64,000 nt of DNA from a virus (Duplodnaviria > Heunggongvirae > Uroviricota > Caudoviricetes), in IMG/VR virus record IMGVR_UViG_3300033067_000504, positions 31,203 to 95,202 of that record. The stretch is one strand, 5' to 3'. How positions within the stretch are numbered: position 1 is the stretch's first letter; each line of letters starts with the position of its first letter. The notes under the pieces are model-generated. The model saw nothing but the letters and a program-made list of their open reading frames with translations. It was not told where the DNA came from and did no database searches. This document shows positions 6,701 through 59,581 of the stretch, in pieces. The position numbers were made by a program, and so were the translations under genes.

Positions 6701-9700
6701 GGCATTCCTATTTCAGCTTCCTCTATTTCACCCTTATTGTTTCTAATAAAGCTTAAGTTAGAGTTCTGTTCTTTATTACTAATACCAAAGTCAGCAAGGT
6801 TAATCATGCTATAACCAGGCTCCTTCTGCTTAAGAATATTCTTCTTAAACAGGTTAGTAAGTACTGATAGGAACTTACGTCCAAGCATAGGGAAACCCAG
6901 CTGTAATGTAAATTCAGGTCTATCTATATTTCTAAGTATCAGCTGTAATGAGTCGTGATAGTTATCATTAAGATCTCTTGACATCAACTCACTTTGTAGT
7001 AATGTCTTTAATTTAAACAGTTGATCCTTACGCTTAGCTTTATCTTCACTTAATTTCCAAGTACTATCAAGTCCAAGCTTGTTCTGTAGTTCTTTAGAGC
7101 TTGTGGCTGTTCTCTCTGCCCACAACTCATTTAACTGCTCCATAACCTGTTCTCCAGTAAGTTCCTTATTACCTACTGAGTATTTGGTCTTAGGATCTAT
7201 ATTACCTGGTAATAGCTTCCAGAACTGAGTAAGCATTGTTACTTCAGTCTTAACTTTATCAGGTATAATCTGTGGGAATCTAATATCGTTAATAGATACT
7301 TCTCTACTTTGAATACTTGTAGGAGGTACACTAAAGTCAGTTATAACACCATAAGCACCTACTTTAACAGCATCATCAGAGGATATAATATCTATATTGT
7401 GCTGGGTCATGTAGGTTAACAAGCTACCATAGCCACCTTCTTGATTATTGTGTTTCTTAGCAAAGTCGGGAATTAGTGGGCTAATAGAGTCCTTAAATTG
7501 TTCTTTAAGTATCATTTTACCTGTAGGAGTATCAAGTACTCTATCACTAATTTGGAAAGGTTTAAATGGTTGTAGTACTACCTTAGCAGCTAAACCTCTC
7601 ATCTCTTTAGCTTGTTCTGGGTTGTAACCATTAGCTTTTATAGCTTCTGATATAGTTAAGTTCTTACCCCAAGCAAAATCATAAACTCTTTGGTGATCTT
7701 TAGTCCAAGCACCAAATCTCTCCATTATATTCTTCCAAGCGTGTACTGTACACAGTGATTGTGCATCAGTCTTATTTACCTTCTTATATTTAAGAGCTTG
7801 TTTAACTGCAGATTTGCCAGTCTCTTTTAAGCTCTTTACAGAAGGGTCAATAAGTTGTGCTAATGAAAGTAAATACTCATCACTATTTGTTTTAATTATT
7901 CTTTGGAAGATAGCCCTAATTAGTTTAAGAGGTTTCTCAGGATTATCCCAAGCCTTTAAACCAGGAGTAACTATCTGGTATCCTCTCTTGTAATAAGCAT
8001 CATCATCTTTATATAATGCCATGTCACCATGAAATACCTTGGACATCTCTGTTCTCCAAGCTATATCATTATAGAAGAATTCCTGTAATAATGTATTTAT
8101 TTCTTTACCCTGTAGTATTGCTGGTGATATTTCTACATTCTCAAGTTTACCTTCCTTATTTCTTTTAATAACTCCTTCATTAATTAAATCAGATACAAAT
8201 TGTGCATAATTAGTATCAATGAATTTAGTTATTACCTGATCTATTTCTTTATTAATTCTATCCAGATCTGCTGGTTTAACTTCCCCGTCAGATACAGAAT
8301 CAGTAATACCTTGTATATTATTAAGCTCAGGTAAGTACACAAACTTCTGTCCTCTGTCCTGATAAGTACTTAGATCTACAGGTAACCCAGCCTTTATCCT
8401 TTTTATTCTGGAAATCTCATTATCAACTGTATTCCTCATTACCTTCCTTAGGAATGATTCTGCATTTTTGCCAACATGTTTAGGTAGTGTCAAAAATACT
8501 TGTTTACTCTTGTCAGACAATGTACCCACAGAAACAAAGCCTTCATTAGCTCCACCATTGTGAAAACCAATAAGTCTCATTAGGTAGCTATCTGTAGTAG
8601 TTCTATCTCCAAACTCCTTAGCTTTACCCTCATCCTTACGCATTGCTGATGGTAAGTAGAAGTTAACTCTAGAGGCTGTCTTGTCATGCTTCCATAGATC
8701 TATAAAAGCATTACCCTGATAGAATTTATCTTGTAAATAAAATGCTGCTTTTTCAGCACCATTATTATGTAGGTCATTTATAAACTCTGCTATATAACTA
8801 GGAGTGTTAATAGAGTTAACTTGATTACCAGCTTCATTTAAAAATACATCAGCTCTTACATCATCAATGTAGGATTTCTCTACTGCAGCTAATCTGTTAA
8901 GTACAGATAGCTTAGACAAATTTTCAAATGGATCTTTCTCTCCTTTAACAGCTTCTTGTAAGAAGTCCAATAAGCTAGAACTCTTTTCAAGGAATAGCAT
9001 ATCCCTGATTGTCTTAGGTGCACCTCTTTTGTTGGACATTTCTATCCAGGTTTGAGGAGCAAGCTCTATTCCAATTTCTTTTAACACACCCTTAAACTGT
9101 TTTTCTACATCAGCATAAGGAGTAGTAGATGTAATTAAACTTTTAGCTTCAAGTAACTTCTTAAGTAAGTGCTCAGCCTTTGTAGTTACTACAGTACCAT
9201 CACTCTTAATAAAGTTTCTCTTTACTGCCCCTTCTCTCCACTTATTTACAATTGTTCTTTGTAAGTCAGCTCTATCTGCAGCTATAACTTTAGCTATAGG
9301 TGTACCTTGTTTATCCCTACCATACAAGAATGTAACATAAGGATGTCTTACTAGGTTTAGCTTGGTATTGAATTCAGCAAGTAGTCTTTGATTACCACTA
9401 GCTACCTCTTTAGACAAAGCATCATAAATAGCTTTACTAATAGGGTCTAATTTGCTTAATTCTTCCAATCTGGTCAACGGAGTACCATGATCAGCTATTT
9501 TACCAGTAAGGTTTCTGAATGCCTTTCTAAAGTCAATAATCTGTGGTGATCCAAGTACTGTAGTTTTTACTCTTTGTGTTCCATCCTCGTTATAAACTAT
9601 CTCTCCTTTATCACTAATTACTGGTTCAGGTATAGTACTCAGGAATGACTTGATTCTTTGTGTTAAAGACTTAGCTGGTGAAACAAGGGTATGGTCAAGA

Positions 9701-12700
9701 TCATAAATTCTTTCTCCTTCATCTTGAGCTTTTAATTCTTGTATTTCATCTGTAGAGCTGTCCTCACCATCCTCAGGTACACTATATTCAGTACCGTCTT
9801 TTAGTTTAACAGTGAATCCCCATTTAGCAAAGTTCTTAAGTACTTCCGTTTTAAAACCAGTTTCTACCTGTAAATCAGTACCAATATCTTCCCACTGTCC
9901 TATTAACTCCTTTTCATCTTCTTCAACTTTTGAAGGATCAATAATACCCATTGAGATGTATATCTGTCTACGATATTCATCCTCGTCTACTCTATCATCC
10001 TCAGGTATAGCTACTATCCTATCGTAATCCTTTAGGAACTTGTTCTTTACTTCAGCAAATAGTTTATCTATTACTCCTTGTTGGGTAAATAGATCTTCAA
10101 ATTCAAGGTTTGCCTTTACAGCCCATTCTCTGGCAATATTCACTACCTCTTGAGTAGTTGCTGCTATAATTTCGTTCTGTTGTTTTGAATTAACCTGCCC
10201 AGGTAATAACCTGAAACTAGGGTCTTGGTCCTTTATACTAGCAGCAATATTAGCTTTCTGTTCTGCAGTTAGCCTTGTTGTTGCTATTTCTTTAAACAAT
10301 CTTTCTATTGGACTTCTTAATCCAAGCAAGTTCTGTATAGCCTGCCATAGTCTGGCAAAAAAGTTCTTTACTTCAAGTTTCTTAGGTTTTACTTTGCCAC
10401 CACTTAACATGTAAGCTCTGAAGTCTTCAGCAAGCTGCTCTTCAGTACCATACTTAAGTACTCCTTGTTGTTGTCTTGGAGATAATAAGTTATCAAACAC
10501 AAAGTGGAATGCTTCGTGGTAAGCTGTACCAGTCTCAGCGTAATCAGCTATAGTAACTAAGGCATTATGATATACACCAAAAGCCTCTATTCCACCATTA
10601 GCTATAATACGATCTACACCTTTTGCTATAGATAAGAACTCTTCTCCAATAGTATCTTTAAACCACTGAAGTTCTCTTGGGGTAATTACTTTGAAGGCAT
10701 GTTTACCAAATTCTGTTAAATCATAAGTGGAATAATCCTCTTTATCTTTAGCTCTGCCTATATCAAGTTTAGTTTTAAATATATCATTGTGGCTAGAGAT
10801 AAGTAATGGTCTTGTTTTGCCACTATAATTATATTGATAGGATACTAGATCTCTTTCTTTTGGGTCTATAAAGATGTCTACTAGAATACCTCTTTCCCCT
10901 GTAAAGCTTTCTTTACTATCATTGAATTGATAAGTACCAACTATTGATGGTAGGGGTGAGGAAGTATCCTCTACTAAATTGTAGGATAGTATTCTACCTT
11001 TAGAAGATTTACGTATATCTGCTACCTTAGTTCCAGGAGCTGGTACTATAAAAGTTAAGGTCTTGTACCCATTTGAATCAAAGTCATAAACTTTAATAGC
11101 ATTAGGGTAAGTTTCTGACATTAACTTACTTGCATCAGTACTTGATAGTTGATTTGTAATAAAGTCCAGATCATGAACTCCATACTGAGCATCTCTATAA
11201 ATACTTCCTTGCACAGATAGTGCTAAACTACCAGTTAAAGCTATTCTATTATTTGAAAGCTTTTCTATTACATCTGCGGCTAATGGGTTACTATCCAGAA
11301 TTTGGTTAAAATTAACAAGCTTTTTGCCAAGGCTTACTTCTCTAGTTTTACCATATAGGTCACTTAAAGATCTTTTACCTTTAGTCTTCTTTTGATCAGT
11401 TGGTTTAGAAACCTCAGGAACATTCTTTATTACAAGCTCATTAGGTGCTACCTCGTCAACAACTATTTGACTAGGATTAGGATCTAATGATACTGTAGCG
11501 TTGTGTATGGAGAATCCAGACTCATTACCTACACCTTGGTTTTTAGCTCCAAGTAATTTAGTTTGTAAGCTATTAGTAGCTGTAGCATACTCAAAGTAGC
11601 TATTATATGTAGTACCAGTTACAGGATCAGTGTAAGGTAGTTCTGAGTTGATATTAGTCTTCTTTACGTTCTTAAAAGAATGATCAAGAATAGTATCTAT
11701 TGCAGAATATAATACTGTGGTTGTCTCTGGGGTTACATTATATCTGTCTTTAGGGTTTGTATCTTTAAATGGTACCCCTGTCTTGCTAAGTAAATTTAAA
11801 CCAGCTACTGGACGTTTATTCATTAAATCGTCGAGTTGCTTTATAGTTAGTCTAGCCCAACCATACTTATAAGGCATTAATACTTCATCAAGTTCTTTAC
11901 CTTTAAAATCAATAAAGTAAAACTTGTCTCTTTTCAACTTTTGTATTTCACCTTTTTTAAGTACTCCTACCCCTTTATTTGGAATGTTAAGTACTTCTCT
12001 AAGAGTTTCTATCTGTCCATTGGAAAGTAATTTTACTATATTACTTTTAACCCAACCTTTCTCATTAGCATCAAGTTGTCTATTATCTAGTGGTATTACC
12101 TTTAGATCTCCTTTGGAATTGGTACGTAATACTACTGTTTGTCCTGGTTGTGGTTCTTTAGCAAATAATGATGTATCAAGAGTTTTTAATCTCTCAAATT
12201 CATTCTTACTCATACCCTTCATAGATTCTACATTAGGTAGTTTTAAACCACCTACATAGATACCAAGGATAGGGTTATGTTCTAGTTTACCTAGTTTCCA
12301 GTTATTATTCTCATCTTGGTAATAGTCAAACTGTAATACCTCAAGTGAGTTACTTACATCTGATTTTCTTACATCACCAAAGCTTTTATCACTAATGGTA
12401 GTTTCAAGCTTACCTGCAGCTATAACTTTCTTTCTTAGTTGCTCTACAAGTTTAGCATTACCTTTCTTGTTGTCCTCAAGATGTTTATTATCAGCTGATG
12501 GTAATTGAAATACAGGTTTACTATGACCTTCTACATAAGCATTAATTACAAAGTTATCCTGACTTGTGGGTTTAAACCCTGGAGTTATAGTAAAGGGGAA
12601 ATCGTTTTCAACCTTTAAAGTAACCTTCATTCCAGGTTGAATCATTGGAGTGTTAATTAACAGGTTACCATGTTTATCACTTGCAAATACTTCTGTAGGA

Positions 12701-43516: not shown

Positions 43517-45709
43517 TTACATTATTAAATCATTATTTGCACCATCTGGTATCATTTCTCTTCTGGATAACATATAGTTTCCTCTCGACTCCTCATCTGA
43601 ATACAGTGGTCTGTTAAATATATGATCTTTGTTTCGTTTAGTTTGTAGTTCTACCTGTTGTAATTCAGCTTCCTGTATTACCATCATTAATACTAGTAAG
43701 CATGAAATTCTGTCAAAGTTACCATCTGGACGGAACTTTATCAACTCCTGGAGTAGTGCTCTATCGTATATCCTGTCTAAGTTAAGAACATATTGAGTTT
43801 CATTACCAACTATTTTCATAGCTCTTTCTTTTAGGAGCCAGTCAGTAGCTTTTTGGAGTAATTCTGGTTTGTTGGATTCTTCTATCCTTACAAAAAACTG
43901 CCTTCCAGACATTTTCTTGAATTCCTTATCGTGGTTAAATACGGTAGGCCTTTCCCCACAATACTCTAAAAAGTTATGGTCTTTTGCGTAGTTTAGTAGT
44001 TCCTGTCCTCCACCCTTTATTTCAGTGTGCACTATGGCATTGTAGAACCTTGCAGCAAGGAATACGTTTCTATGGAAGTCCCTTACTCTAGGTGGTCTTC
44101 CTGCATACCAAGCCACAAGAATATCATCCTCTGTAGGGAACATGTTGTTTATCTTTTTGTAGACATAGTAGGTTCCTAATGAAACCCAGTCTGTGGCTTG
44201 ATCTGTATCAACAGCAAAACAGTCAGCAACAATGTAGTATAAGCTACTTGGAACTTTACCAAACTCATCCTTTAATGGTGCTTCAAACATTGTAAATGCA
44301 CCATTAAGTACTGTTTCTGTCTTGTGAGGATATTGATCTACAGGCTCTAGTTTGGGGTTAAGTTTAAACCTTACAGCCCCCTCGTCTATTTCTAATTCCC
44401 CAACCTTTAATACCCCCTTTACATCTGGTGTATTGTCTACGTACTGTAGTTGTTTTTGTAGTTGTCCTACAGGGAATGGGTTGTTGTTAAGACGCATTAA
44501 TGCTTCAGAGGGGGTAAATGGTTGTTCTGAAACACGTTTATCAAGTAAGGCTTGAGATCTCTTGGAAAGCTTTTCTCTTTCTTCTTCTCTGAATGCTTTA
44601 GCTTTAGCAAAGTCAGTATTACCCCACTTGTCCATGAACTTAGTCATGTTAGCCCAAGAAGGAAAAAAGAACCCATGATCCTTTGGTAGTGGAGCTTCTT
44701 CCCAACAGTTTTCAAATGGTAGGCACTCGTATGCTTCAGGATTAAGGAAGATCTCTTCAAGACCTGCTATACCTGGCCCTTGCTCTCCTCCAGTACCCCA
44801 CACACACATCATTGCAAACTTAACACCACCTTGTTCAGCCAAGTCTTTAGCTGTCATCCAAGCATCTACAAGGTTAGGAAAAGAACCACCCTCCTCAAAG
44901 TTTACATAACCACGAGCACCTCGAAGTTTACGTGGATGATCAACTACTGCTCCCTGTATCTCTCCACCAGTTTTCTTTTCAGAACCAGTCTCAGGATTAA
45001 AATAAGAAGCTCTCTTGTGTAGGTCTTGATCTTTATATTGACGTAAGTGTTTAAATGCTCTTTCAGTTTGTTCGTTATGAAAGTTAATCTGATCCCATGC
45101 TTTAGAAAGCACACCATCCTTGTTAAGGTATCTTTCAATAGCTACAAAGAAGAATACAGGATCTTCAGTTTGGAAGGTATATTCGTGTACTCCAAATGAA
45201 GATAGTAATTCAGAGAAACCAGTATCACGAGGTTTTAGTACTGATAGATTTAAGCCTTCTTCTTTTGCCAGTTGATAGTCTTTACTAAAGAAGTAGTGTA
45301 TAGGCCAGAACCTAGGGAACGTAGTAATACGTTTTGCCGACTTCTTTTTCTTATCCCCCTCAGCAATAACTTTCATTTGCTTATAGTTGAGGAAGTGGTA
45401 GTACTTACCAGGTATCCATAACTTGGTTATAGGATTTTCATATCCTTCTATACAACGTTCTTTCTCTCTTCCCCAGAATATGTTGTACTTTTTAGAATTA
45501 AATACCTCACCACAGTACTTACCTTCTTTCATGAACTTATTAGCTGCTGGACTAAATAGTTCAGTATGCTCAAAAAACGAATTAAGGAGTAAGTCCTTGT
45601 TGAACTTACCCCTTACTTTTTGAACTTCTTTTGCTATGTCTTGTATTTGAAATGTTTCAATCATCTTCGTCCTCTTCTGATATTTTACCTGGTGCCTTCT
45701 CAGCACCAT
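43517..45709 (-). CDS. terL: terminase large subunit candidate, 730 aa
   Basis: Size, position at the head of the packaging/structural block, and acidic-residue motifs in the C-terminal half (IVADCFAVDTDQATDW) resemble an RNase H-like nuclease domain. The N-terminal ATPase motif is divergent. Confidence 0.55.
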   Translation of the reverse strand: MVLRRHQVKYQKRTKMIETFQIQDIAKEVQKVRGKFNKDLLLNSFFEHTELFSPAANKFMKEGKYCGEVFNSKKYNIFWGREKERCIEGYENPITKLWIPGKYYHFLNYKQMKVIAEGDKKKKSAKRITTFPRFWPIHYFFSKDYQLAKEEGLNLSVLKPRDTGFSELLSSFGVHEYTFQTEDPVFFFVAIERYLNKDGVLSKAWDQINFHNEQTERAFKHLRQYKDQDLHKRASYFNPETGSEKKTGGEIQGAVVDHPRKLRGARGYVNFEEGGSFPNLVDAWMTAKDLAEQGGVKFAMMCVWGTGGEQGPGIAGLEEIFLNPEAYECLPFENCWEEAPLPKDHGFFFPSWANMTKFMDKWGNTDFAKAKAFREEEREKLSKRSQALLDKRVSEQPFTPSEALMRLNNNPFPVGQLQKQLQYVDNTPDVKGVLKVGELEIDEGAVRFKLNPKLEPVDQYPHKTETVLNGAFTMFEAPLKDEFGKVPSSLYYIVADCFAVDTDQATDWVSLGTYYVYKKINNMFPTEDDILVAWYAGRPPRVRDFHRNVFLAARFYNAIVHTEIKGGGQELLNYAKDHNFLEYCGERPTVFNHDKEFKKMSGRQFFVRIEESNKPELLQKATDWLLKERAMKIVGNETQYVLNLDRIYDRALLQELIKFRPDGNFDRISCLLVLMMVIQEAELQQVELQTKRNKDHIFNRPLYSDEESRGNYMLSRREMIPDGANNDLIM

Positions 45710-50066: not shown

Positions 50067-50124
50067 GCTTCAAATATAAAACTAGTTTATTAGATCTCCA
50101 AATATTTTTTGTGTTTTATTTTAG

Positions 50125-50208
50125 TGCCTCTGGTAGGACTCGAACCTACTCACCCCTAAGGGAACAGATTTACAGTCTGTCGTAACTCTCCAACTTTACC
50201 GCATAGGC
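50125..50208 (-). tRNA. tRNA-Tyr (GTA), type II with long variable arm
   Basis: Hand-folded: anticodon stem-loop ACAGA-CTGTAAA-TCTGT; T-arm GTAGG-TTCGAGT-CCTAC; long variable arm. One mismatch in the acceptor stem; no encoded CCA. Confidence 0.7.
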
Positions 50209-50213
50209 TTAAG

Positions 50214-50299
50214 TACTCCTAACAGGAATCGAACCTGTACCCCTATTACTAGGGAAGGGATTTTAAGTCCCTCGCGTCTACCAGTTCCGCCATAGGAGC
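50214..50299 (-). tRNA. tRNA-Leu (TAA)
   Basis: Hand-folded: anticodon loop CTTAAAA; T-arm ACAGG-TTCGATT-CCTGT; long variable arm; G1-U72. Confidence 0.7.
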
Positions 50300-50304
50300 A
50301 ATTG

Positions 50305-50377
50305 AGGGGAAGGTAAGGATCGAACTTACGACCTAGACATTAACAGTGTCTTGCTACTTCCGCTGAGCTACTTCCCC
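50305..50377 (-). tRNA. tRNA-Asn (GTT)
   Basis: Acceptor GGGGAAG/CTTCCCC perfect; anticodon AGACA-CTGTTAA-TGTCT; T-arm GTAAG-TTCGATC-CTTAC. Confidence 0.75.
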
Positions 50378-50382
50378 TTTAG

Positions 50383-50464
50383 TACTTTAGGAGGGACTCG
50401 AACCCCCACGCCTTTCGGCACCAGATCCTAAGTCTGGCGTGTCTACCAGTTCCACCACTAGAGC
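50383..50464 (-). tRNA. tRNA-Leu (TAG)
   Basis: Anticodon CCAGA-CTTAGGA-TCTGG; variable-arm hairpin GCCGAAAGGC; T-loop TTCGAGT; acceptor has G1-U72 and one C-A mismatch. Confidence 0.6.
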
Positions 50465-50469
50465 GTAAG

Positions 50470-50541
50470 GTGTTAGATGAGATTTGAACTCACGATCAAG
50501 GTTCCACAAACCTATGCTTTAGGCCGCTAAGCTACTAACAC
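50470..50541 (-). tRNA. tRNA-His (GTG), no genomically encoded G-1
   Basis: Acceptor GTGTTAG/CTAACAC perfect; anticodon TAGGT-TTGTGGA-ACCTT; T-arm GTGAG-TTCAAAT-CTCAT; discriminator C; position -1 is U. Confidence 0.7.
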
Positions 50542-50543
50542 AG

Positions 50544-50620
50544 TAAGGTATCCAGGATTTGAACCTGGGAATCTCTTCCTTCCAAGGGAAGCGAGGACGA
50601 CCGGACTCCTCCAATACCTT
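50544..50620 (-). tRNA. tRNA-Pro (TGG)
   Basis: Acceptor AAGGTAT/ATACCTT; D-arm GAGG-AGTCCGGTCGT-CCTC; anticodon CTTCC-CTTGGAA-GGAAG; T-arm CCAGG-TTCAAAT-CCTGG. Confidence 0.75.
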
Positions 50621-54412: not shown

Positions 54413-55231
54413 CGATTTAACTCTTCTGCTTGAAGACAAACAACTACTCAAACCAGAGTTTACTGGGCTGTAGTAATACATTCGGTTAATCCGTAGAGAG
54501 TGCGCTGTTCTAGCAGTTAATGTTTGTTGTAGAGATGTGGGACTCTGGAGTAATGCACATTCCAACTAGAAAATTTGGACAGAAGAGTTATTAATACTAA
54601 AACTATTACTTTGTATTACCGAAAACTGGGGTGCAGTTGCTAGGGGTGTGCACACTGAGCAATCAAGACGAAAACCTAAATTCATACAGTTCGAGTAGTA
54701 GTTTTAACATAACCAGCACATACCAACAAACACTGGTTCATAGTGGTATAAGGTGATAAACCACTATTTTAAAACATTGCAATCACGGAAGACAATGACA
54801 AACTACACATATTGAAGGCTTCAGGGTATTAAGGTTCCCATTACGCGAATGGAGAAAGGTATTCACCGAACAGTAATGATAGTTATGAGTCTTGAGCCGT
54901 GTGGGTTAGTATTAGAGTTGCTTTTGTAACTTGATGACTAACCTAAAATAATAGGCTAAACATTGATCCTTATAACAAGAGAGTTAATACTCCCTGTAAT
55001 GAGGGGAAATTACATATCATTACTAACAATACATATCGCATATTGTTACTCTTGTTTAAAAAGTAATAACTACTTGAACGGAATACAGGAAGCATAATGG
55101 AATCCAATGCGTGTTAATTAAGCTGGAAAGGACTGAGGAGTAGTAGATGATAAATCGACTTAAAACTCTGAAACTCACAGAACTGTGTTATTACTTTTAA
55201 TTTGAATTCTCTAAACCATAAACTATACTTT

Positions 55232-55354
55232 ATGAAAAGATTCATTATTCTTATTGTTGCAGTAACTTTAATTGCTTTTATAGCAATGAGTTGCTCAACG
55301 TACACCTGCCCTACCTATGCTGGTAGTAAAGCAGATCATCATCGGGTGAATTAG
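55232..55354 (+). CDS. mini lipoprotein/secreted peptide, 40 aa
   Basis: MKRFIILIVAVTLIAFIAMSC: signal peptide with a lipobox-like AMSC, then a Cys-containing tail. Confidence 0.3.
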   Translation: MKRFIILIVAVTLIAFIAMSCSTYTCPTYAGSKADHHRVN

Positions 55355-55386
55355 TTAAGCACTAGAAATTAACATTAAATAATTAT

Positions 55387-56112
55387 ATGAAAATACAAAT
55401 AGTGAAAAAGGATAGCAGTAAGAAATTCAATTTTCTTGCTGGTATAAATCGTGCAATTCGTCCAGCGCAAGTAACTAGACTAGCAGAGTCTCTAAAGAAA
55501 ATGGGATGTCTTAGACCAGTTGTTATTGCCCACCTCTCTTTTAAAGAGCTAGTAGGTAACTACGTTATTGATGGTCAACACCTATTTCATGCACTCATTC
55601 GTAATAATATGGATATCCCATTTGTTATGATAGATGTAGCAGATGAGCAAGACTTAGTAGAAAAGTTAGCACTACTAAATAATAGCTCAAAAAGTTGGAC
55701 ACTTGCTGACTATCTACAGGTGTGGGCATGGAGAAGTGAGGAATATAAAAAGCTTCTCAAATATTACAATACCTATGATTTTGAAATAGGAATTCTTGCA
55801 TCTATTCTTTCTGGTAGGGTAGATGGGGGATCACTTACGCAAATGATTAAGCGTGGAAAGTTTAAGGTTGTAAATGAAGAACAAAATAAGAATCTGTTAG
55901 ATTATCTAACGGACGTACTTGCAATAGTTCCTAGAATGCGTAGATTTGAAAACAGATACCTCTGCAAAGAGTATGTGACGTTCTATCGTGCAATGGGTAG
56001 TAAGTATGACCATGCAAAGTTTCTTAAAAAGCTAAGCAAAAACAAGCTAGAATTTGTGCTTGCAACACAAGAACCAGGTAAGCTAGTGAATTTATTCACT
56101 CACTTGGTATAA
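55387..56112 (+). CDS. ParB/sulfiredoxin-fold (DGQH motif) nuclease-like protein, 241 aa
   Basis: YVIDGQHLFHAL resembles the ParB-N / DndB-type DGQHR catalytic-loop region. Confidence 0.4.
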   Translation: MKIQIVKKDSSKKFNFLAGINRAIRPAQVTRLAESLKKMGCLRPVVIAHLSFKELVGNYVIDGQHLFHALIRNNMDIPFVMIDVADEQDLVEKLALLNNSSKSWTLADYLQVWAWRSEEYKKLLKYYNTYDFEIGILASILSGRVDGGSLTQMIKRGKFKVVNEEQNKNLLDYLTDVLAIVPRMRRFENRYLCKEYVTFYRAMGSKYDHAKFLKKLSKNKLEFVLATQEPGKLVNLFTHLV

Positions 56113-56205
56113 TAAAGTACTAACATTAAATGTGAGGAGCACGGTTTTATAGACCTCTCGTATATAGGAATAGTACGCACAGTTAATGTTTAAACAAAAA
56201 CAAAC

Positions 56206-56394
56206 ATGATTTATTTAATTTATTTATTTTGTTACCTTTTAATAGGGATAATAGTAGTGGTTTTTGAAATCATTAAAGAACACTTAATTGCACCAATTAA
56301 ATTGCAGGATATAATTGATGCTGGTAAGCCAATGATTATAGTGCTACTATTTTGGCCAGCCTATTTAGGTTGGTTAGTATGGAAAAAATTTTAA
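56206..56394 (+). CDS. two-TM small membrane protein, 62 aa
   Basis: Hydrophobic segments LIYLFCYLLIGIIVVVF and MIIVLLFWPAYLGWLVW. Confidence 0.4.
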   Translation: MIYLIYLFCYLLIGIIVVVFEIIKEHLIAPIKLQDIIDAGKPMIIVLLFWPAYLGWLVWKKF

Positions 56395-56406
56395 AACAAA
56401 CACAAG

Positions 56407-58104
56407 ATGTTTAAGCAAAAACAAAAACAACTGATTGAGATTTCTCAATCAACATCTGGCACAACCACAATGGAATCACCATTTGTAGCAGCTGCAAACA
56501 AGAAATCAGCACGTACCTTAAGTGGTAATGGTGCACTCAAATACTCAACAACAGGTAATGACTTTGTTGATCAATTTGGTAAGCTAGGATCTTATAAAAC
56601 TCCTCGTACATATGAAGAGATAGCTAATGATATGGCAACACTGTGGGCAATAAACCCATTGCTAACTGTATGCTTTACTCTGTTCATTCGTATGATTACA
56701 AGAGTGGTAGTATCATTTGATGGTATCAAGACAGCATCACCTCAACGTGGAGCAGGATTGAAAAATGAAGGTATTATGAGAATGATGTGGATTAACATCA
56801 ATCATCGTGATACGTTCTGGAAGAACTTTGGTTTATTTGTTATGGTGGGTTCATGGAAAGATGTCTTTGTGATGTTGTCCTTAGATCTTCAGTATAATGG
56901 ATGGAAATCAAGAATGTTAGATTGGGATAAGTTTGGACAAGCAATACTTGTTGGACTTGAGAATCCTAATACTACCAACTTGGTTAAGAAATATCTACCC
57001 CAACTAAAATCAAACGCACAGTGTAAAACATTGGAATCACAAGCTAATAACATCATTGCAAAATGGTTGTGCAGCTTGTTGTTTGGTGGTAAAAATGGTG
57101 ATACACAGTTTCAGAATTATAAGAAGTATCGCCAGTTAAAAACCAGTGGTACAGCTCACACATGGCAACAACACATATCTCGTAAAGATCTAATTAAGCT
57201 TGACTTTAATACTGTACATGGTAGAGCTTTAGCTCAAATGGTGTCAGGTAAGTTCTTGGCTAATAACGGATTAGAGAAGAGGTATGAGGAATGGATAGCT
57301 AACAAACCAATAGCTAAGTTTACTGGTTATGTAACTGAGTTGTTCATCAAAACTCCAGAGAAGAAGTATCAAATTGATACATTGAATGCTCAGTTCAATG
57401 GATTAATAGAAACAGCAAAAAAGAGTGCAATTACTGCAACAAACTTTATTTCTGTTGTTGATACCAGTGGTTCAATGAGTACACCTAATAGTGGAATCAA
57501 GATGGAGAATGTGGATGTTGCTAAGTCATTAGCATTATTCTTCTCACAAATGTTAAACAAAGGTCCATTTGCTAACGCATGGTTTGAGTTTAACAGTTTT
57601 GCGGTTCTTCATACCATTAAAGGTTCAACACCTTGGGAGAAATGGTGTGACATGAAGAGATATAGTCATACTGGTAGTACAAACTTTATTTCAGTAGTAG
57701 AATATCTAATTGATATCAGGAAAAAGAATCCAAAGTTAGCAGAATCAGATTTCCCACAAGGATTTCTGGTAATGTCAGACATGGAGTTCAATCCTACTCA
57801 GTTTGGTACTAATACTGAAACTGTATTCAAGAGATTGCGTACAGTATTCTCTAAAGAGTTTGTAAACAACTTTAAACTTGTATTCTGGAACCTACAAAGC
57901 AATGCGTATGGTCGAGGAACAGGTGAAAAGTTTGAAACACATGGTAATGAGAAGAATGTATTCTATTTCTCAGGATACGATGGTAGCATAGTAGCATTCT
58001 TAACTGGTGTGGAGGGTAAAGCTGAAAAGCCTACACCCACTACTGCAGAAGAGTTGTTCAAAGCCGCTATGGACCAAGAGGTTCTTAAACTTGTAGAAAT
58101 TTAA
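56407..58104 (+). CDS. vWA-domain protein with an N-terminal helical domain, candidate Ro60/Rsr-like (TROVE+vWA) RNA-binding protein; alternative: DUF2828-type vWA protein
   Basis: Canonical MIDAS motif VVDTSGSMS at aa ~345 with downstream Thr and Asp candidates. The 565-aa length and vWA placement match Ro60 orthologues. The gene is immediately followed by an array of tRNA-mimic structured RNAs, as at rsr-yrlA loci. Confidence 0.5.
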   Translation: MFKQKQKQLIEISQSTSGTTTMESPFVAAANKKSARTLSGNGALKYSTTGNDFVDQFGKLGSYKTPRTYEEIANDMATLWAINPLLTVCFTLFIRMITRVVVSFDGIKTASPQRGAGLKNEGIMRMMWININHRDTFWKNFGLFVMVGSWKDVFVMLSLDLQYNGWKSRMLDWDKFGQAILVGLENPNTTNLVKKYLPQLKSNAQCKTLESQANNIIAKWLCSLLFGGKNGDTQFQNYKKYRQLKTSGTAHTWQQHISRKDLIKLDFNTVHGRALAQMVSGKFLANNGLEKRYEEWIANKPIAKFTGYVTELFIKTPEKKYQIDTLNAQFNGLIETAKKSAITATNFISVVDTSGSMSTPNSGIKMENVDVAKSLALFFSQMLNKGPFANAWFEFNSFAVLHTIKGSTPWEKWCDMKRYSHTGSTNFISVVEYLIDIRKKNPKLAESDFPQGFLVMSDMEFNPTQFGTNTETVFKRLRTVFSKEFVNNFKLVFWNLQSNAYGRGTGEKFETHGNEKNVFYFSGYDGSIVAFLTGVEGKAEKPTPTTAEELFKAAMDQEVLKLVEI

Positions 58105-58140
58105 AATCTTACTGTGACAAGTAAGTGGGGCGGCAAAAGT

Positions 58141-58168
58141 GATAGGTGTAACAGCCTATCACTTTTAT
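58141..58168 (+). terminator. hairpin GATAGG-TGTAACAGC-CCTATC plus T-run; also carries the AACAGC motif in its loop (element 0 of the RNA array)
   Basis: 6-bp stem with the loop sequence shared with the downstream repeat bulge, followed by ACTTTTAT. Confidence 0.4.
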
Positions 58169-58169
58169 A

Positions 58170-58232
58170 AGAGCAGAAACAGCAAATTTAAAAACAATCA
58201 AAGGTTAATTGATAAAGTTAAATCACTGCTCT
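58170..58232 (+). ncRNA. structured RNA unit A (outer helix AGAGCAG/CTGCTCT, AACAGCA bulge, inner ATTTAA/TTAAAT helix)
   Basis: Complementary 7-nt ends flank the conserved bulge motif. Confidence 0.45.
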
Positions 58233-58237
58233 GATAA

Positions 58238-58295
58238 GATTACCAACAGCAAATCAAAAAACTTCTAAATTTACTTGGAAAAACAGATGGTAATC
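58238..58295 (+). ncRNA. structured RNA unit B (outer helix GATTACC/GGTAATC, AACAGCA bulge)
   Basis: Same architecture with a different, compensatory outer helix. Confidence 0.45.
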
Positions 58296-58301
58296 TGATA
58301 A

Positions 58302-58423
58302 GTTCTGTAACAGCAATTTTAAAGCTAATTCCAACAGTGGGTCGCAAGTTCGAGTCTTGCATGGTTCGTAAGAGCCATTAGCTCAGGTGGTAGAGCAACC
58401 GTCAATGCAAAAAAATTCAGAAC
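58302..58423 (+). ncRNA. Y RNA (YrlA)-like unit C carrying a tRNA mimic
   Basis: Outer helix GTTCTG/CAGAAC; bulge TAACAGC; inner AATTTT/AAAATT. Apical module: T-arm GCAAG-TTCGAGT-CTTGC, ATGGTTC, GTAA loop, GAGCCAT (complementary, G-U at one position), U8, D-arm GCTC-AGGTGGTAG-AGC with G18G19. Confidence 0.55.
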
Positions 58424-58429
58424 TGATAA

Positions 58430-58544
58430 TGTGAGTAACAGCAATTTTAAATGAATTTGGTTCCGTAGACGTAGGTTCGATCCCTACACCCCTACCATAA
58501 GGTTTGGGTTCGTCTAGTGGCTAGGACAACGTAAAATTCTCACA
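58430..58544 (+). ncRNA. Y RNA (YrlA)-like unit D carrying a tRNA mimic
   Basis: Outer helix (A)TGTGAG/CTCACA(T); bulge TAACAGC; inner AATTTTA/TAAAATT. T-arm GTAGG-TTCGATC-CCTAC, ACCCCTACC-ATAA-GGTTTGGGT acceptor-like hairpin (7 of 9 bp), D-arm GTCT-AGTGGCTA-GGAC. Confidence 0.5.
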
Positions 58545-58550
58545 TGATAA

Positions 58551-58646
58551 AGTGTCACGCAGCAAAACAAAAACTATTCTTTTTGAAACAGAGACGAAGC
58601 TTGGAGGCTAGTAATAGTACGGGTTCGATTCCCCGAATTTGACACT
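58551..58646 (+). ncRNA. structured RNA unit E (outer helix AGTGTCA/TGACACT, variant CGCAGCA bulge, T-arm-like CGGG-TTCGATT-CCCG element)
   Basis: Same outer-helix/bulge architecture; the apical part holds a T-arm-like hairpin only. Confidence 0.4.
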
Positions 58647-58663
58647 TGTTAAACAAACAAACT

Positions 58664-59077
58664 ATGAAACATTTATTCCTTATTCTAATCCTATTTGCTA
58701 CAGCTTGTTCTAAACAGGATGTAGCACCCAAAGCACCAATAACTATTGAAGGCAATTGGAGCTTTGATTTCACTGATAAAACTGTTGGTGGCTCATTTAC
58801 TATTGAAACAGTAAATAATAAACTGGCAGTGACTAAAGGTTCTTATTATACTACCTGTTGTGGTGGTATTAAGAATACAGTAATCATTGGTAAAGTTACA
58901 CAACTACCTGATGATAAGACAGTTATTACATTACAAGGAGCTGATATTAGTAATGCACTGATACTGCATGTAAGCTCTATTAGTACAGATGGTAACACAA
59001 TAATCAGTGATAATACTACTGATTACCACACGTTACAGTTCTGGACACAAGTAGTAACAATTAAACGTACACTCTAA
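58664..59077 (+). CDS. lipoprotein, ~138 aa
   Basis: MKHLFLILILFATAC: signal peptide plus lipobox (FATAC) from the ATG at 58664. The track's 58646 start is a TTG inside RNA unit E and is unlikely. Confidence 0.5.
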   Translation: MKHLFLILILFATACSKQDVAPKAPITIEGNWSFDFTDKTVGGSFTIETVNNKLAVTKGSYYTTCCGGIKNTVIIGKVTQLPDDKTVITLQGADISNALILHVSSISTDGNTIISDNTTDYHTLQFWTQVVTIKRTL

Positions 59078-59090
59078 CCTTCTCTCATGT

Positions 59091-59315
59091 ATGGCTAGAC
59101 ATTTATTTAAAGTACCATTACCAACAAGTGATATGTTTATTTATAGTGTTAGCCTAAAAAAGAAAGAAATAGGTTATGAAGTAAGAGATCCTGAAGGTAA
59201 GTTGCTTGAAACACCAGGAGTAGCTAAGATCACAACAGATGCTACCAAAGCATATTTTGATTCTAGATTTATTCCTATTGATCTGATAAAACACATTGAA
59301 ACAGTATTATCATGA
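59091..59315 (+). CDS. hypothetical protein, 74 aa
   Basis: ORF. Confidence 0.35.
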   Translation: MARHLFKVPLPTSDMFIYSVSLKKKEIGYEVRDPEGKLLETPGVAKITTDATKAYFDSRFIPIDLIKHIETVLS

Positions 59316-59581
59316 AACAAAAGAAAACACCAAAACCACAGCAGATGTGGGATGTTTGTATAATGTTGAAACAAGGTGATGATAGAGAACCAAGACACTT
59401 ATCAACACCACATTATAATTTACCTTATAAGCTAGCCTCAACACTTGGCAAAGCTGAAGAAAGTAAACCTACTAACCAAAAAGGTACATTCTATAAGTTA
59501 GTAAAGAATGGAGAAAAACCTACAAAACAAATGAGTATACCATTTCAACATAGTATACCAAATGAGTTAGTAGTTATGTAA
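59312..59581 (+). CDS. hypothetical protein, 89 aa
   Basis: ORF with ATGA start/stop overlap with the previous ORF. Confidence 0.35.
   Translation: MKQKKTPKPQQMWDVCIMLKQGDDREPRHLSTPHYNLPYKLASTLGKAEESKPTNQKGTFYKLVKNGEKPTKQMSIPFQHSIPNELVVM

What the first reader, a model, noticed from the sequence alone, without database searches (positions are those of the whole stretch)
58141..58646. Tandem array of 5-6 structured RNAs with covarying outer helices and a conserved AACAGCA bulge, immediately downstream of a Ro60-like vWA protein gene
The ~500-nt ORF-free interval after the vWA gene is tiled by units that each begin and end with a 6-7-nt inverted pair. The pairs differ in sequence but stay complementary: AGAGCAG/CTGCTCT, GATTACC/GGTAATC, GTTCTG/CAGAAC, TGTGAG/CTCACA, AGTGTCA/TGACACT. 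This is textbook covariation and argues for a conserved RNA secondary structure, not a promoter or a DNA repeat. Just inside the 5' strand every unit carries the same unpaired (U/A)AACAGC(A) motif, then an AU-rich inner helix, then a variable apical domain. A helix with a conserved bulge on the 5' strand is what Ro60 recognises on Y RNAs. Ro60/Rsr genes are characteristically adjacent to their Y RNA genes in bacteria and in some mycobacteriophages. I am not aware of such a module, or a multi-copy array of it, having been described in a crAss-like phage.
Basis: partly seen in the sequence, partly recalled or inferred. Interest (0 to 1): 0.95.

Follow-up and report, generated by a model that had tools for sequence, protein, structure and literature searches.

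The report
Phage small-RNA array beside Ro60-like gene
A phage gene for a ring-shaped, Ro60-like RNA-binding protein is followed by five small structured RNAs that share one docking motif and partly imitate tRNAs; the pair recurs in many phages, including E. coli phages, appears undescribed, and closely resembles an orphan RNA class of social amoebae.

Summary
Window 58170-58647 (+) holds five head-to-tail units (U1-U5) separated by GAUA. Each has a 7-bp terminal stem of different sequence and (N)ACAGCAA nine nt from its start; U5 has CGCAGCAA. Covariance models built only from other phages find all five and nothing else significant in the 64 kb, apart from weak false hits on the tRNA cluster. 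U3 and U4 carry a permuted tRNA-like core (T arm, acceptor-like hairpin, D arm), as in bacterial YrlA Y RNAs. U5 carries a tRNA-Leu-like body lacking the anticodon arm.

In many relatives the gene's own start region folds into a unit-like element with the AUG inside the stem. This suggests that the protein binds this module and regulates itself.

The canonical Ro60 motif (GNCGAA..G) is absent, so this is a new variant of the Ro60/Y-RNA kind.

The short units have nearly the same architecture as Dictyostelium Class I RNAs.

Binding, expression and function are untested.

The parts
56407..58104 (+). Gene for a 565-aa Ro60-fold protein (HEAT-like ring plus vWA domain with a MIDAS motif); Pfam DUF7788 with a weak DUF2828 match; PHROG 850 'RNA-binding protein'
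56405..56457 (+). Unit-like element over the gene's own translation start. The 7-bp stem AGAUGUU/AACAUCU encloses the AUG. The motif is degenerate (UAAGCAAAA) and there is an internal hairpin.
   Evidence: The sequence was read and the stem found. In relatives the same position carries AG-AUG-UU-N-[A/G]ACAGCAA...CAUCU and scores 34-46 bits with model R1. The window copy itself is not hit by R1. The encoded N-terminal 22 residues have pLDDT below 50.
58135..58166 (+). Hairpin U0 (AAAAGUGAUAGG / CCUAUCACUUUU, loop UGUAACAG) between the stop codon and the array. It may be a leaky terminator, a stabiliser, or a remnant of the 'UAGG...CCUG' leader unit seen in relatives.
   Evidence: The fold energy is -17.6 kcal/mol. 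R1 and R2 do not recognise it as a unit. Leader units of the form TAGGxxxx..ACAGCAA..xxxxCCTG occur in L004, L036 and L073.
58170..58232 (+). Unit U1 (63 nt, short type): stem AGAGCAG/CUGCUCU, AAACAGCAA, and an inner 5-bp hairpin with the 7-nt loop AGGUUAA
   Evidence: R1 scores 35.7 bits, E 8e-7. R2 scores 37.6 bits.
58237..58296 (+). Unit U2 (60 nt, short type): stem AGAUUAC(CA)/(UG)GUAAUCU, AACAGCAA
   Evidence: R1 scores 68.5 bits, E 7e-13. Rfam Dicty_Class_I_RNA scores 31.7 bits over the full model.
58301..58424 (+). Unit U3 (124 nt, long type): stem AGUUCUG/CAGAACU, UAACAGCAA, and a permuted tRNA-like core (T arm GCAAG-UUCGAGU-CUUGC, acceptor-like hairpin AUGGUUC-GUAA-GAGCCAU, D arm GCUC-AGGUGGUA-GAGC)
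   Evidence: R2 scores 97.0 bits, E 6e-16. Rfam YrlA scores 36.5 bits, E 3e-6, at 58337-58399.
58429..58545 (+). Unit U4 (117 nt, long type): stem AUGUGAG/CUCACAU, UAACAGCAA, and a permuted tRNA-like core with a tRNA-Glu/Asp-type D arm (GUCU-AGUGGCUA-GGAC)
   Evidence: R2 scores 56.2 bits, E 2.6e-10, with filters off. The sequence was read. Orthologous unit types occur in L002, L006, L011, L035 and L039.
58550..58647 (+). Unit U5 (98 nt): stem AAGUGUC/GACACUU, variant motif CGCAGCAA, and an insert resembling the D, variable and T arms of a class II tRNA in normal order, without an anticodon arm
   Evidence: R1 scores 32.1 and 21.3 bits. The insert aligns with the window's own tRNA-Leu(UAA), with a gap exactly over that tRNA's anticodon arm. 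Orthologous types occur in L003_5181, L034_5648, L051_5876, L017_5629 and L081_5795.
58170..58647 (+). The whole array: five units tiled head to tail with 4-nt GAUA spacers (58233-36, 58297-300, 58425-28, 58546-49), packed between the protein gene and the next gene (ATG at 58664)
   Evidence: One search shows the tiling. In relatives, 84 successive unit pairs are spaced by exactly 4 nt, and the spacer is GATA in 61 of them.

Best explanation
The interval encodes a polycistronic array of five small non-coding RNAs that are the cognate ligands ('Y-like RNAs') of the Ro60-fold protein encoded just upstream.

Each RNA has two modules.
- A constant docking module: a 7-bp terminal stem beginning AG and ending CU, followed on the 5' strand by single-stranded (N)ACAGCAA. 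I infer that the protein recognises this module.
- A variable effector module that imitates part of a tRNA. In the window these are the T/acceptor/D 'elbow' in U3 and U4 and a tRNA-Leu-like body in U5. In many relatives' short units it is an anticodon-stem-loop-like hairpin.

I infer that the precursor is cut in or next to the GAUA spacers. The resulting RNPs would present tRNA look-alikes to tRNA-binding host factors such as nucleases, modification enzymes and defence effectors. They would either tether those factors to the ring protein, as Y RNAs tether PNPase to Ro60, or act as decoys. The net effect would be protection of the phage's translation or counter-defence.

The protein probably also binds a copy of the docking module that overlaps its own start codon and so represses its own translation. 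That site is degenerate in this window.

Shown here: the RNA architecture, its conservation and covariation, its strandedness, the two-way gene-array linkage, the Ro60-like fold, and the start-site mimic.

Inferred: expression, processing, binding, and the biological role.
For: 1. Unit family. Models trained only on other phages recover all five window units.

2. RNA rather than DNA. All 150 hits in 80 loci are on the gene's strand. Terminal stems differ completely in sequence yet pair in exact register at 58% of ACAGCA sites, against 7% in controls. The T, acceptor-like and D stems are 95.6% paired, against 64% when shuffled and about 45% when slid.

3. Linkage. 64 of 80 loci found through the protein have units. 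Conversely, of 26 arrays found through a DNA pattern alone, 21 have the gene in the fetched stretch and 4 more lie on contigs known to carry it.

5. Operator-like mimic. The start region of the gene scores as a unit in at least 8 relatives at 34-46 bits. The AUG lies in the stem, ACAGCAA encodes N/D-S-K, and the encoded peptide is predicted to be disordered.

6. tRNA mimicry. Rfam YrlA matches the tRNA-like core. 39 of 75 short units have a 7-nt-loop hairpin of anticodon type, against 5.4 in shuffles, and CUUUUAA is the commonest loop. That hairpin covaries.

7. tRNA context. In Felixounavirus phages the homologous gene sits directly upstream of the tRNA array, and units lie between tRNA genes.

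8. Biology. Bas63 gp130 has a Ro60-like fold, lies upstream of the tRNAs, and counters the Ppl defence system (PMC11482910). I infer that it is the same family as the protein in this window.
Against: - There are no expression or binding data for any member.
- The protein has no detectable sequence similarity to Ro60/TROVE, so shared RNA-binding behaviour is an extrapolation from fold.
- The canonical Ro60 contact motif is absent.
- Adjacency could reflect co-function rather than direct binding.
- The anticodon-loop resemblance is weak in this window: the U1 loop is AGGUUAA and U2 has a 6-nt loop. Many related units are homologous, so the counts are not independent events.
- The window's own start-site mimic has lost ACAGCAA and is not scored by the model.
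- Terminal-stem pairing in alignment A2 is partly circular, because units were selected for a stem. The unbiased test addresses this.
Confidence: 0.65

Rival explanations
1. The units are genuine processed small RNAs, but their docking module is read by a different protein, from the host or another phage gene. Candidates are an RRM-type protein like Dictyostelium CIBP/Rnp1A, or a processing nuclease. On this view the Ro60-fold protein acts on other RNAs, such as phage tRNAs or misfolded or damaged RNAs. Gene and array would be neighbours only because both belong to a tRNA-centred module.
For: - In Felixounavirus and in the more distant jumbo-phage loci, the gene is followed mainly by ordinary tRNA genes.
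- The only protein shown to bind a Class I RNA directly in Dictyostelium is an RRM protein.
- Ro60 proteins also bind misfolded RNAs through the central hole (PDB titles).
Against: - The start codon of the protein's own gene is embedded in a unit-like element in many relatives. This is hard to explain unless this protein reads that module.
- The gene-array association is near-perfect in both directions.
Confidence: 0.17
2. The elements are cis-acting mRNA or operon punctuation (terminators, attenuators, stabilising hairpins or processing sites) rather than free-standing functional RNAs.
For: - The array lies between two co-oriented genes, with hairpins after the stop codon.
- A unit-like element also occurs within an mRNA, at the gene start.
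- Regular GAUA spacers look like processing sites.
Against: - Terminators and stabilisers do not need an invariant single-stranded heptamer at a fixed register.
- They also do not need 5-11 tandem copies or embedded tRNA-like cores with covarying T, acceptor-like and D stems.
- Distinct unit subtypes are conserved across phages whose proteins are only 45-65% identical.
Confidence: 0.06
3. The long units are permuted or fragmentary tRNA genes, either pseudogenes or genes matured by circularisation or trans-ligation into working tRNAs. The short units would be decayed remnants.
For: - The T, acceptor-like and D arms are of tRNA quality.
- The U5 insert aligns with the phage's own tRNA-Leu.
- Units are interspersed with tRNA genes in Felixounavirus.
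Against: - Neither ARAGORN nor Rfam tRNA calls anything in the array.
- The long units have no anticodon arm. Its place is taken by the docking module.
- The acceptor-like stem is closed by a loop and has no CCA-type end.
- Pseudogenes would not keep covarying stems and an invariant motif across distant phages.
Confidence: 0.04
4. The repeats act at the DNA level, for example as protein-binding iterons, a replication or packaging site, or a mobile-element remnant.
For: The array is tandem and regularly spaced, in an intergenic region.
Against: - The units share no sequence beyond the heptamer and the flanks.
- Complementarity is maintained through compensatory changes and G-U pairs.
- The strand bias is absolute, 150 of 150.
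- The unit lengths of 51-205 nt are irregular.
Confidence: 0.02

Closest known systems
Bacterial and phage Ro60 (Rsr/TROVE) with YrlA-type Y RNAs (Rfam RF02553; Chen et al. 2014, PMC4201824; Thermus phage phiLo Ro60-Yrl1/2, PMC12135203)
   Same: - A ring-plus-vWA protein is encoded next to one or more small RNAs.
- The RNA ends pair into a stem, with a conserved single-stranded motif on the 5' strand.
- The effector module is a tRNA-like core in the order T arm, acceptor-like hairpin, D arm.
- The system occurs in phages.
   Different: - The protein is not TROVE by sequence. It is Pfam DUF7788/DUF2828.
- The motif is ACAGCAA, not GNCGAAN0-1G/CGAA.
- The RNAs score 33-37 bits against a gathering score of 69.
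- There are 5-11 tandem units with fixed 4-nt spacers instead of 1-2 genes.
- There are additional unit types, namely anticodon-loop-like short units and a tRNA-Leu-body type.
- A unit-like element lies over the protein's own start codon.
Dictyostelium Class I RNAs (Rfam RF01414; Kjellin et al. 2021, PMC7919456)
   Same: - The architecture is almost the same as that of the short units: 42-65 nt, a terminal stem of about 6 bp with variable sequence joining the ends, conserved ends AAG...CUG(U), and the motif CCUUACAGCAA directly after the 5' strand. Its near-invariant residues U3, C6, C9, A10 and A11 are all matched by the phage UAACAGCAA. An A-rich tract precedes the 3' strand and the interior is variable.
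- RF01414 is the Rfam family that hits the short units. All hits cover the full model, at 16-39 bits: window U2 31.7; L081 39.3, 30.7, 26.2, 19.2; L073 34.1, 26.1, 20.5, 17.1, 16.5.
   Different: - All scores are below the gathering score of 41.5.
- The phage linker between stem and motif is one nt shorter.
- The Dictyostelium RNAs are dispersed, individually transcribed genes with a DUSE promoter, whereas the phage units form tandem arrays.
- The only confirmed direct binder in Dictyostelium is an RRM protein.
- Kjellin et al. found the class in no organism outside Dictyostelia.
- I could not test whether Dictyostelia encode a DUF2828/DUF7788 protein.
- A sequence-only profile of the phage units scores the Dictyostelium RNAs only modestly, at 10.5 bits or less, against 7.4 for the best decoy.
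Felixounavirus gp130 of phage Bas63 (PhageMaP preprint, PMC11482910)
   Same: It is probably the same protein family. The Escherichia phage dune 'vWFA protein' is 26% identical over aa 183-555 (E 9e-11) and occupies the same position directly upstream of the tRNA array. The preprint notes the Ro60-like fold and suggests an RNA partner.
   Different: The authors guessed that some annotated tRNA genes are the Y RNAs. The ACAGCAA units lying between the tRNA genes were not described; they are at L082 5355-5421 and 5998-6123, which I convert to about MN850636.1 78250-78316 and 77548-77673. The phenotype reported there, countering the Ppl defence, has not been tested for this window's phage.

Membership tests
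YrlA / bacterial Y RNA (RF02553) | tRNA-like domain with T arm, acceptor-like stem-loop and D arm in that order | tested here: met
   This holds for U3 and U4. Rfam YrlA aligns to 58337-58399 over model positions 24-84. R2 scores 97.0 and 56.2 bits. The three stems covary in 20 related units. It does not hold for U1, U2 or U5.
YrlA / bacterial Y RNA (RF02553) | Score at or above Rfam's gathering threshold (69 bits) | tested here: not met
   The score is 36.5 bits in the window and 33-37.5 bits in relatives.
YrlA / bacterial Y RNA (RF02553) | 5'-proximal Ro60-contact motif GNCGAAN0-1G (CGAA) | tested here: not met
   The motif is defined in Chen 2014 and PMC12135203. The units instead carry (N)ACAGCAA at a fixed register.
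YrlA / bacterial Y RNA (RF02553) | Encoded within about 4 kb of a TROVE-domain Ro60 orthologue | tested here: inconclusive
   The array starts 66 nt after a Ro60-fold gene, but that protein has no TROVE match.
YrlA / bacterial Y RNA (RF02553) | Bound by Ro60 in vivo | not testable with these tools
   This needs RIP/CLIP or EMSA.
Ro60 / TROVE protein family | Sequence membership (Pfam TROVE, or similarity to solved Ro60 proteins) | tested here: not met
   There is no TROVE hit at E up to 10. Neither phmmer nor profile hmmsearch against PDB sequences finds anything.
Ro60 / TROVE protein family | Helical-repeat ring plus C-terminal vWA domain (Ro60 fold) | tested here: met
Ro60 / TROVE protein family | MIDAS motif (DxSxS...T...D) in the vWA domain | tested here: met
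   D352, S354, S356, T425 and D458 are invariant among 26 homologues.
Pfam DUF7788 / DUF2828 | Score above the curated Pfam threshold | tested here: met
   PF25043 scores 72.9 bits against a cut-off of 27.1. PF11443 scores only 11.7 bits in the window protein but is recorded for many close homologues.
Dictyostelium Class I RNA (RF01414) | About 42-65 nt, with a short terminal stem of variable sequence joining the 5' and 3' ends | tested here: met
   U1 is 63 nt and U2 is 60 nt. Short units in relatives are 51-69 nt, with a 7-bp stem that covaries.
Dictyostelium Class I RNA (RF01414) | 11-nt motif CCUUACAGCAA next to the 5' stem strand (near-invariant U3, C6, C9, A10, A11), and conserved ends AAG...CUGU | tested here: met
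   U3 and U4 have UAACAGCAA. The family consensus is (U/A)(U/A)ACAGCAA. The ends are (A)AG...CUG(A). The phage linker is one nt shorter. U5 deviates.
Dictyostelium Class I RNA (RF01414) | Score at or above Rfam's gathering threshold (41.5 bits) | tested here: not met
   Window U2 scores 31.7 bits. The best relative scores 39.3 bits.
Dictyostelium Class I RNA (RF01414) | Individually transcribed genes with a DUSE promoter about 60 nt upstream; restricted to Dictyostelia | tested here: not met
   The phage units are tiled 4 nt apart in one array, so no unit can have its own upstream element.
tRNA | Cloverleaf with an anticodon arm, recognised by tRNA finders | tested here: not met
   ARAGORN and Rfam tRNA find only the six tRNAs at 50124-50620.

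The most novel reading that the evidence does not exclude
The phage ACAGCAA-box RNAs and the Dictyostelium Class I RNAs may be one RNA class, defined by a docking module (AG-stem-CU plus UACAGCAA) that is read by DUF2828/DUF7788 Ro60-fold proteins. If so, this would be a second, previously unrecognised Ro/Y-type RNP lineage shared by many phages and some eukaryotes, perhaps moved between them by horizontal transfer. It would give the orphan Class I RNAs a candidate protein partner and mechanism. It would also make the phage version a modular display system for tRNA parts, used against tRNA-directed host defences.
Probability: 0.25. Interest if true: 0.93.

Novelty: new variant of a known kind. 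Interest (0 to 1): 0.85.

Why it matters
- **A partner for an uncharacterised protein family.** DUF2828/DUF7788 had more than 1,800 hits in one search, including Felixounavirus, cyanophage, crAss-like and jumbo phages. This finding gives it a concrete RNA partner and a testable recognition element.
- **A wider Ro60/Y-RNA paradigm.** It would extend that paradigm to a sequence-unrelated protein lineage with a different RNA code.
- **A modular RNA design.** One docking module is fused to interchangeable tRNA-part mimics. This bears on how phages deal with tRNA-targeting defences and on the reported anti-Ppl activity of Bas63 gp130.
- **It is testable now.** Units occur in culturable E. coli phages and in a cultured cyanophage, so the predictions can be tested directly.
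- **A lead for the Class I RNAs.** The near-identity of the docking module with Dictyostelium Class I RNAs offers a specific hypothesis for an RNA class whose mechanism is still unknown.

Tried and rejected
- **Sequence searches against PDB.** The protein (phmmer) and a 26-member profile found nothing. Ro60 likeness therefore rests on predicted fold only.
- **DNA similarity.** blastn of gene plus array against 50,697 phage records gave one weak coding hit, so the array is not detectable by DNA similarity.
- **Promoters and terminators.** The sigma-70 promoter and terminator scan of 55000-59500 was at background and did not call the U0 hairpin. Bacteroidetes-type promoters are not covered.
There is no covariation beyond an eighth terminal pair, at columns 13/89. 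Only 6-13% of related units have 5 bp or more, against 3-5% with swapped partners. I reject it as a family feature.
- **tRNA genes or pseudogenes.** No tRNA finder calls any in the array. R2's weak hits at 50246-50568 are T-arm/D-arm pairs of adjacent real tRNAs, a false-positive type noted by Chen 2014.
- **Reciprocal test against Dictyostelium.** A sequence-only HMM of the phage units gave modest scores on Dictyostelium RNAs: 24 of 26 were hit, at 10.5 bits or less, against 7.4 for the best decoy. Infernal was not available for sequences outside the session.
- **Eukaryotic distribution of DUF2828.** The afdb50 library was unavailable. Avesson 2011 is not held. Literature searches for DUF2828, PF11443, DUF7788 and DDB_G0281243 returned nothing functional.
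- **Pattern scan of viral contigs.** 54 of the 80 listed stretches were single, chance-like matches without arrays. I used them as an internal negative set.
Full report
**Observation.** I read 57900-59100. After the stop codon of the 565-aa ORF 56407-58104 come two small hairpins and then five units tiled head to tail:
- U1 58170-58232
- U2 58237-58296
- U3 58301-58424
- U4 58429-58545
- U5 58550-58647

Neighbouring units are separated by exactly GATA. The next gene's ATG is at 58664. In U1-U4, ACAGCA begins exactly 9 nt after the unit start. U5 has CGCAGCAA.

AACAGCAA occurs 8 times in the 64-kb window against 4.1 expected, and four of these lie on the + strand within 267 nt. Only 4 of the 25 + strand ACAGCA sites in the window have a 7-bp partner in the exact register, and they are the four array sites. 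A loose stem search has a high background: about 17% of ACAGC sites find some stem of 7 bp or more within 220 nt. What is improbable is therefore the combination of fixed register, tiling and motif, not the stems alone.

**Is it a family?** The protein has more than 1,800 relatives in the protein collection. An alignment of 26 of them (A1) retrieved 80 viral loci.
- In most loci, ACAGCA clusters on the gene's strand lie just downstream of the gene. In L008, L010 and L013 they lie upstream.
- Units there have the same anatomy as in the window: (A)AG-N5, two nt, ACAGCAA, a variable interior, N5-CU, then GAUA.
- 84 successive unit pairs are spaced by exactly 4 nt, and the spacer is GATA in 61 of them.
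- Without any selection for pairing, 240 of 412 + strand ACAGCA sites (58%) have an exact-register 7-bp partner. The figure is 7% on the minus strand and 6-12% in registers shifted by 2 nt or more away from the helix.

A covariance model (R1) built from 70 short units of other phages (A2) finds U2 at 68.5 bits (E 7e-13), U1 at 35.7 bits and U5 at 21-32 bits. Its only other hit in the 64 kb is at noise level (E 1.1). A second model (R2), built from 20 long units of other phages (A3), finds U3 at 97.0 bits (E 6e-16) and U4 at 56.2 bits; its only other hits are weak ones on the real tRNA cluster. Over the 80 loci, R1 gives 150 hits at E of 0.01 or less, in 64 loci, all on the gene's strand.

The association also holds in reverse. 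I scanned viral contigs for CTGATAAG-N7-ACAGCAA alone. Of the 80 stretches listed, 26 hold real arrays.
- 21 of these have the protein gene inside the fetched stretch.
- 4 of the other 5 are on contigs already known to carry the gene.
- The 54 single matches without arrays have the gene in only 3 cases.

**Structure of the RNAs.** The terminal helix varies freely in sequence. That alignment was selected for a stem, so one search is the unbiased test.

The long units fold into a T arm, a 7-bp acceptor-like hairpin and a D arm (RNAalifold). These three stems are 95.6% paired, against 64% in shuffles and about 45% when slid, with 105 doubly changed cells. This is the topology of bacterial YrlA Y RNAs. 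Rfam's YrlA model aligns to that core in U3 at 36.5 bits (E 3e-6) and in L003, L006 and L016 at 33-37.5 bits. All are below the gathering score of 69.

U5 is a different type. Its insert aligns with the window's own tRNA-Leu(UAA), with a gap exactly over the anticodon arm. The same type recurs in other phages.

Among short units of relatives, 39 of 75 contain a hairpin with a stem of 4 bp or more and a 7-nt loop of the form N-U-NNN-R-N, against 5.4 in shuffles. The commonest loops are CUUUUAA, CUCGUAA and CUUGUAA. That helix is 74.8% paired, against 53.6% shuffled, and it covaries. In the window this feature is weak: the U1 loop is AGGUUAA and U2 has a 6-nt loop.

**The protein.** Pfam gives only DUF7788 (72.9 bits) and a sub-threshold DUF2828 match, with no TROVE. 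PHROG 850 is annotated 'RNA-binding protein'. Sequence searches against PDB find nothing. The AlphaFold model built on A1 has pLDDT 86.6, and residues 1-22 are disordered.

The phage itself is only distantly crAss-like. Its TerL is about 30% identical to those of crAss-like phages, and it has a 4,799-aa ORF.

**An unexpected link between protein and RNA.** R1 repeatedly hits the first 65 or so nt of the protein gene itself in relatives: L001, L009, L017, L021, L022, L028, L042 and L057, at 34-46 bits. The pattern is A-AG-AUG-UU-N-[A/G]ACAGCAA...(A/G)(A/C)CAUCU-G.
- The start codon lies in the 5' strand of the terminal stem.
- ACAGCAA encodes N/D-S-K of the conserved MFNSKQ or MFDSKK N-terminus.
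- The 3' strand encodes T-S.
- The peptide encoded there is the disordered tail. This fits selection acting at the RNA level.

The window keeps the 7-bp stem (56405-56411 with 56451-56457), but its motif has decayed to UAAGCAAAA. A ligand mimic over a protein's own ribosome-binding region is the classic layout of translational autoregulation by RNA-binding proteins (established knowledge). I take it as the best available evidence that this protein reads the stem-plus-ACAGCAA module.

**Context in cultured phages and the literature.**
- Leptolyngbya phage Lbo-JY46 has a 44%-identical homologue followed by five units, two of which R1 scores at 70.7 and 63.9 bits.
- In Escherichia phage dune (Felixounavirus) the homologue sits directly upstream of the tRNA array. 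Units lie between tRNA genes: a short one at L082 5355-5421 and a long one with a tRNA-like core at 5998-6123.
- A preprint reports that Bas63 gp130 has a Ro60-like fold, lies upstream of the tRNAs and counters the Ppl defence. Its authors guessed that some tRNA genes are Y RNAs. The units were not described there.
- Canonical phage Ro60/Y-RNA pairs use a CGAA motif.
- Searches for DUF2828, DUF7788, crAss with Ro60, and YrlA with phage found no description of this RNA family. Rfam 15 has no family for it.

**Resemblance to Dictyostelium Class I RNAs.** The Rfam family that hits the short units is Dicty_Class_I_RNA. It does so over the full model:

| Source | Bit scores |
|---|---|
| Window U2 | 31.7 |
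| L016 | 35.8 |
| L073 | 34.1, 26.1, 20.5, 17.1, 16.5 |
| L081 | 39.3, 30.7, 26.2, 19.2 |

The gathering score is 41.5.

Class I RNAs are 42-65 nt long. They begin AAG and end CUGU, have a variable 6-bp terminal stem, and carry CCUUACAGCAA next to the 5' strand. They were reported as found only in Dictyostelia. Actual sequences line up closely:
- DdR-56: GUUGACCUUACAGCAAAUCUAACAUUUCC...GAAAAACUUCGUCAACUG
- L081 unit: AGUUGGCUUACAGCAAAUUAACAAAC...GAAAAACAAAAGCCAACUG

A sequence-only HMM of the phage units scores the Dictyostelium RNAs only modestly. I could not test whether Dictyostelia encode a DUF2828/DUF7788 protein, or what DDB_G0281243 is; it is an uncharacterised protein pulled down with a Class I RNA. 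The resemblance is therefore a strong lead, not a membership claim.

**Mechanism.** The most likely account is as follows. The array is transcribed on the gene's strand and cut at the GAUA spacers. Each RNA docks on the Ro60-fold protein through the stem-plus-ACAGCAA module and exposes a tRNA-part mimic to tRNA-binding host factors, either tethering or decoying them. The protein also represses its own translation through the start-site mimic.

Architecture, conservation, strandedness, linkage, fold and the mimic are shown here. Expression, processing, binding and role are inferred. I put 0.65 on the RNP core of this account and less on the decoy or counter-defence role. The rivals are scored separately in the report: another protein reads the module, cis-acting punctuation, tRNA pseudogenes or permuted tRNA genes, and DNA-level repeats.

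**Verdict.** This is a real, widespread and apparently undescribed RNA family that forms a new variant of the Ro60/Y-RNA kind. Experiments in E. coli phages are immediately feasible, and there is a possible bridge to an orphan eukaryotic RNA class.

Noticed in passing
window 56405-56457 (+); L001, L009, L017, L021, L022, L028, L042, L057 at about 2994-3070: The first 50-70 nt of the Ro60-fold gene fold into a unit-like element. The AUG lies inside the terminal stem, ACAGCAA encodes N/D-S-K, and CAUCU forms the 3' strand. This is a likely autoregulatory operator. The window copy keeps the stem but has lost the motif.
   Followed up: yes
L073 5172-5583; L081 5661-6012; window 58237-58296: Rfam's Dictyostelium Class I RNA model hits phage short units over its full length at 16-39 bits. 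The ends (AAG...CUG), the motif (UACAGCAA) and the A-rich tract before the 3' strand match real Dictyostelium sequences.
   Followed up: partly
short units of L001-L073 (for example L081 5733-5790, L045 5610-5666, L017 5562-5624): About half of the short units carry an anticodon-stem-loop-like hairpin with a 7-nt loop having U at position 2 and a purine at position 6. Loops equal to tRNA-Lys (CUUUUAA) and tRNA-Thr (CUCGUAA, CUUGUAA) are the commonest. A second loop type (UUUUGGU, AUUGGAA) is unexplained.
   Followed up: partly
L082 (Escherichia phage dune, MN850636.1) 3602-8996: In Felixounavirus the homologous 'vWFA protein' gene directly precedes the array of about 24 tRNA genes. ACAGCAA units sit in gaps between tRNA genes (5355-5421, 5998-6123). 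Other long gaps between tRNAs were not examined.
   Followed up: partly
L004 5922-6281 and L011 5806-6208: In two related crAss-like contigs a phage-encoded tmRNA (72.3 and 52.8 bits) and tRNA genes follow the unit array directly. The array is thus part of a larger RNA-gene island there. The window has no tmRNA.
   Followed up: no
window 58550-58647 versus 50214-50299 (-): The insert of U5 aligns with the phage's own tRNA-Leu(UAA) (D arm, variable arm, T arm), with the anticodon arm precisely missing. This suggests that units arise by capturing parts of phage tRNA genes.
   Followed up: partly
window 58107-58124 and 58135-58166 (+); L004 4820-4915, L036 4674-4760, L073 5031-5127: Two hairpins lie between the stop codon and U1. 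The second has AACAGC in its loop and resembles a collapsed copy of the 'UAGGxxxx...ACAGCAA...xxxxCCUG' leader unit that opens the array in some relatives. Its role (terminator, stabiliser or remnant) is unknown.
   Followed up: no
window 50124-50620 (-): There is a cluster of six tRNA genes (Tyr-GTA, Leu-TAA, Asn-GTT, Leu-TAG, His-GTG, Pro-TGG) on the opposite strand, about 6 kb before the Ro60-fold gene. Model R2 gives weak false hits there from the T arm of one tRNA plus the D arm of the next.
   Followed up: partly
window 727-15126 (-): A single ORF of 4,799 aa is present. I did not examine it further. TerL (43517-45709) is only about 30% identical to those of known crAss-like phages, so this is a distant lineage.
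   Followed up: no
window 55387-56112 (+) and 58664-59077 (+): The module is flanked upstream by a ParB-like or nuclease-like gene (PHROG 12305, 2.6e-18). Downstream is a small protein of about 137 aa whose N-terminus (MKHLFLILILFATAC) looks like a lipoprotein signal peptide.
   Followed up: no
window 59222-59289 (+): Model R1 gives a weak hit (13.1 bits, E 0.11) with an AAGAUCA/UGAUCU stem followed by GAUAA but no ACAGCAA, inside ORF 59091-59315. It is probably chance.
   Followed up: no
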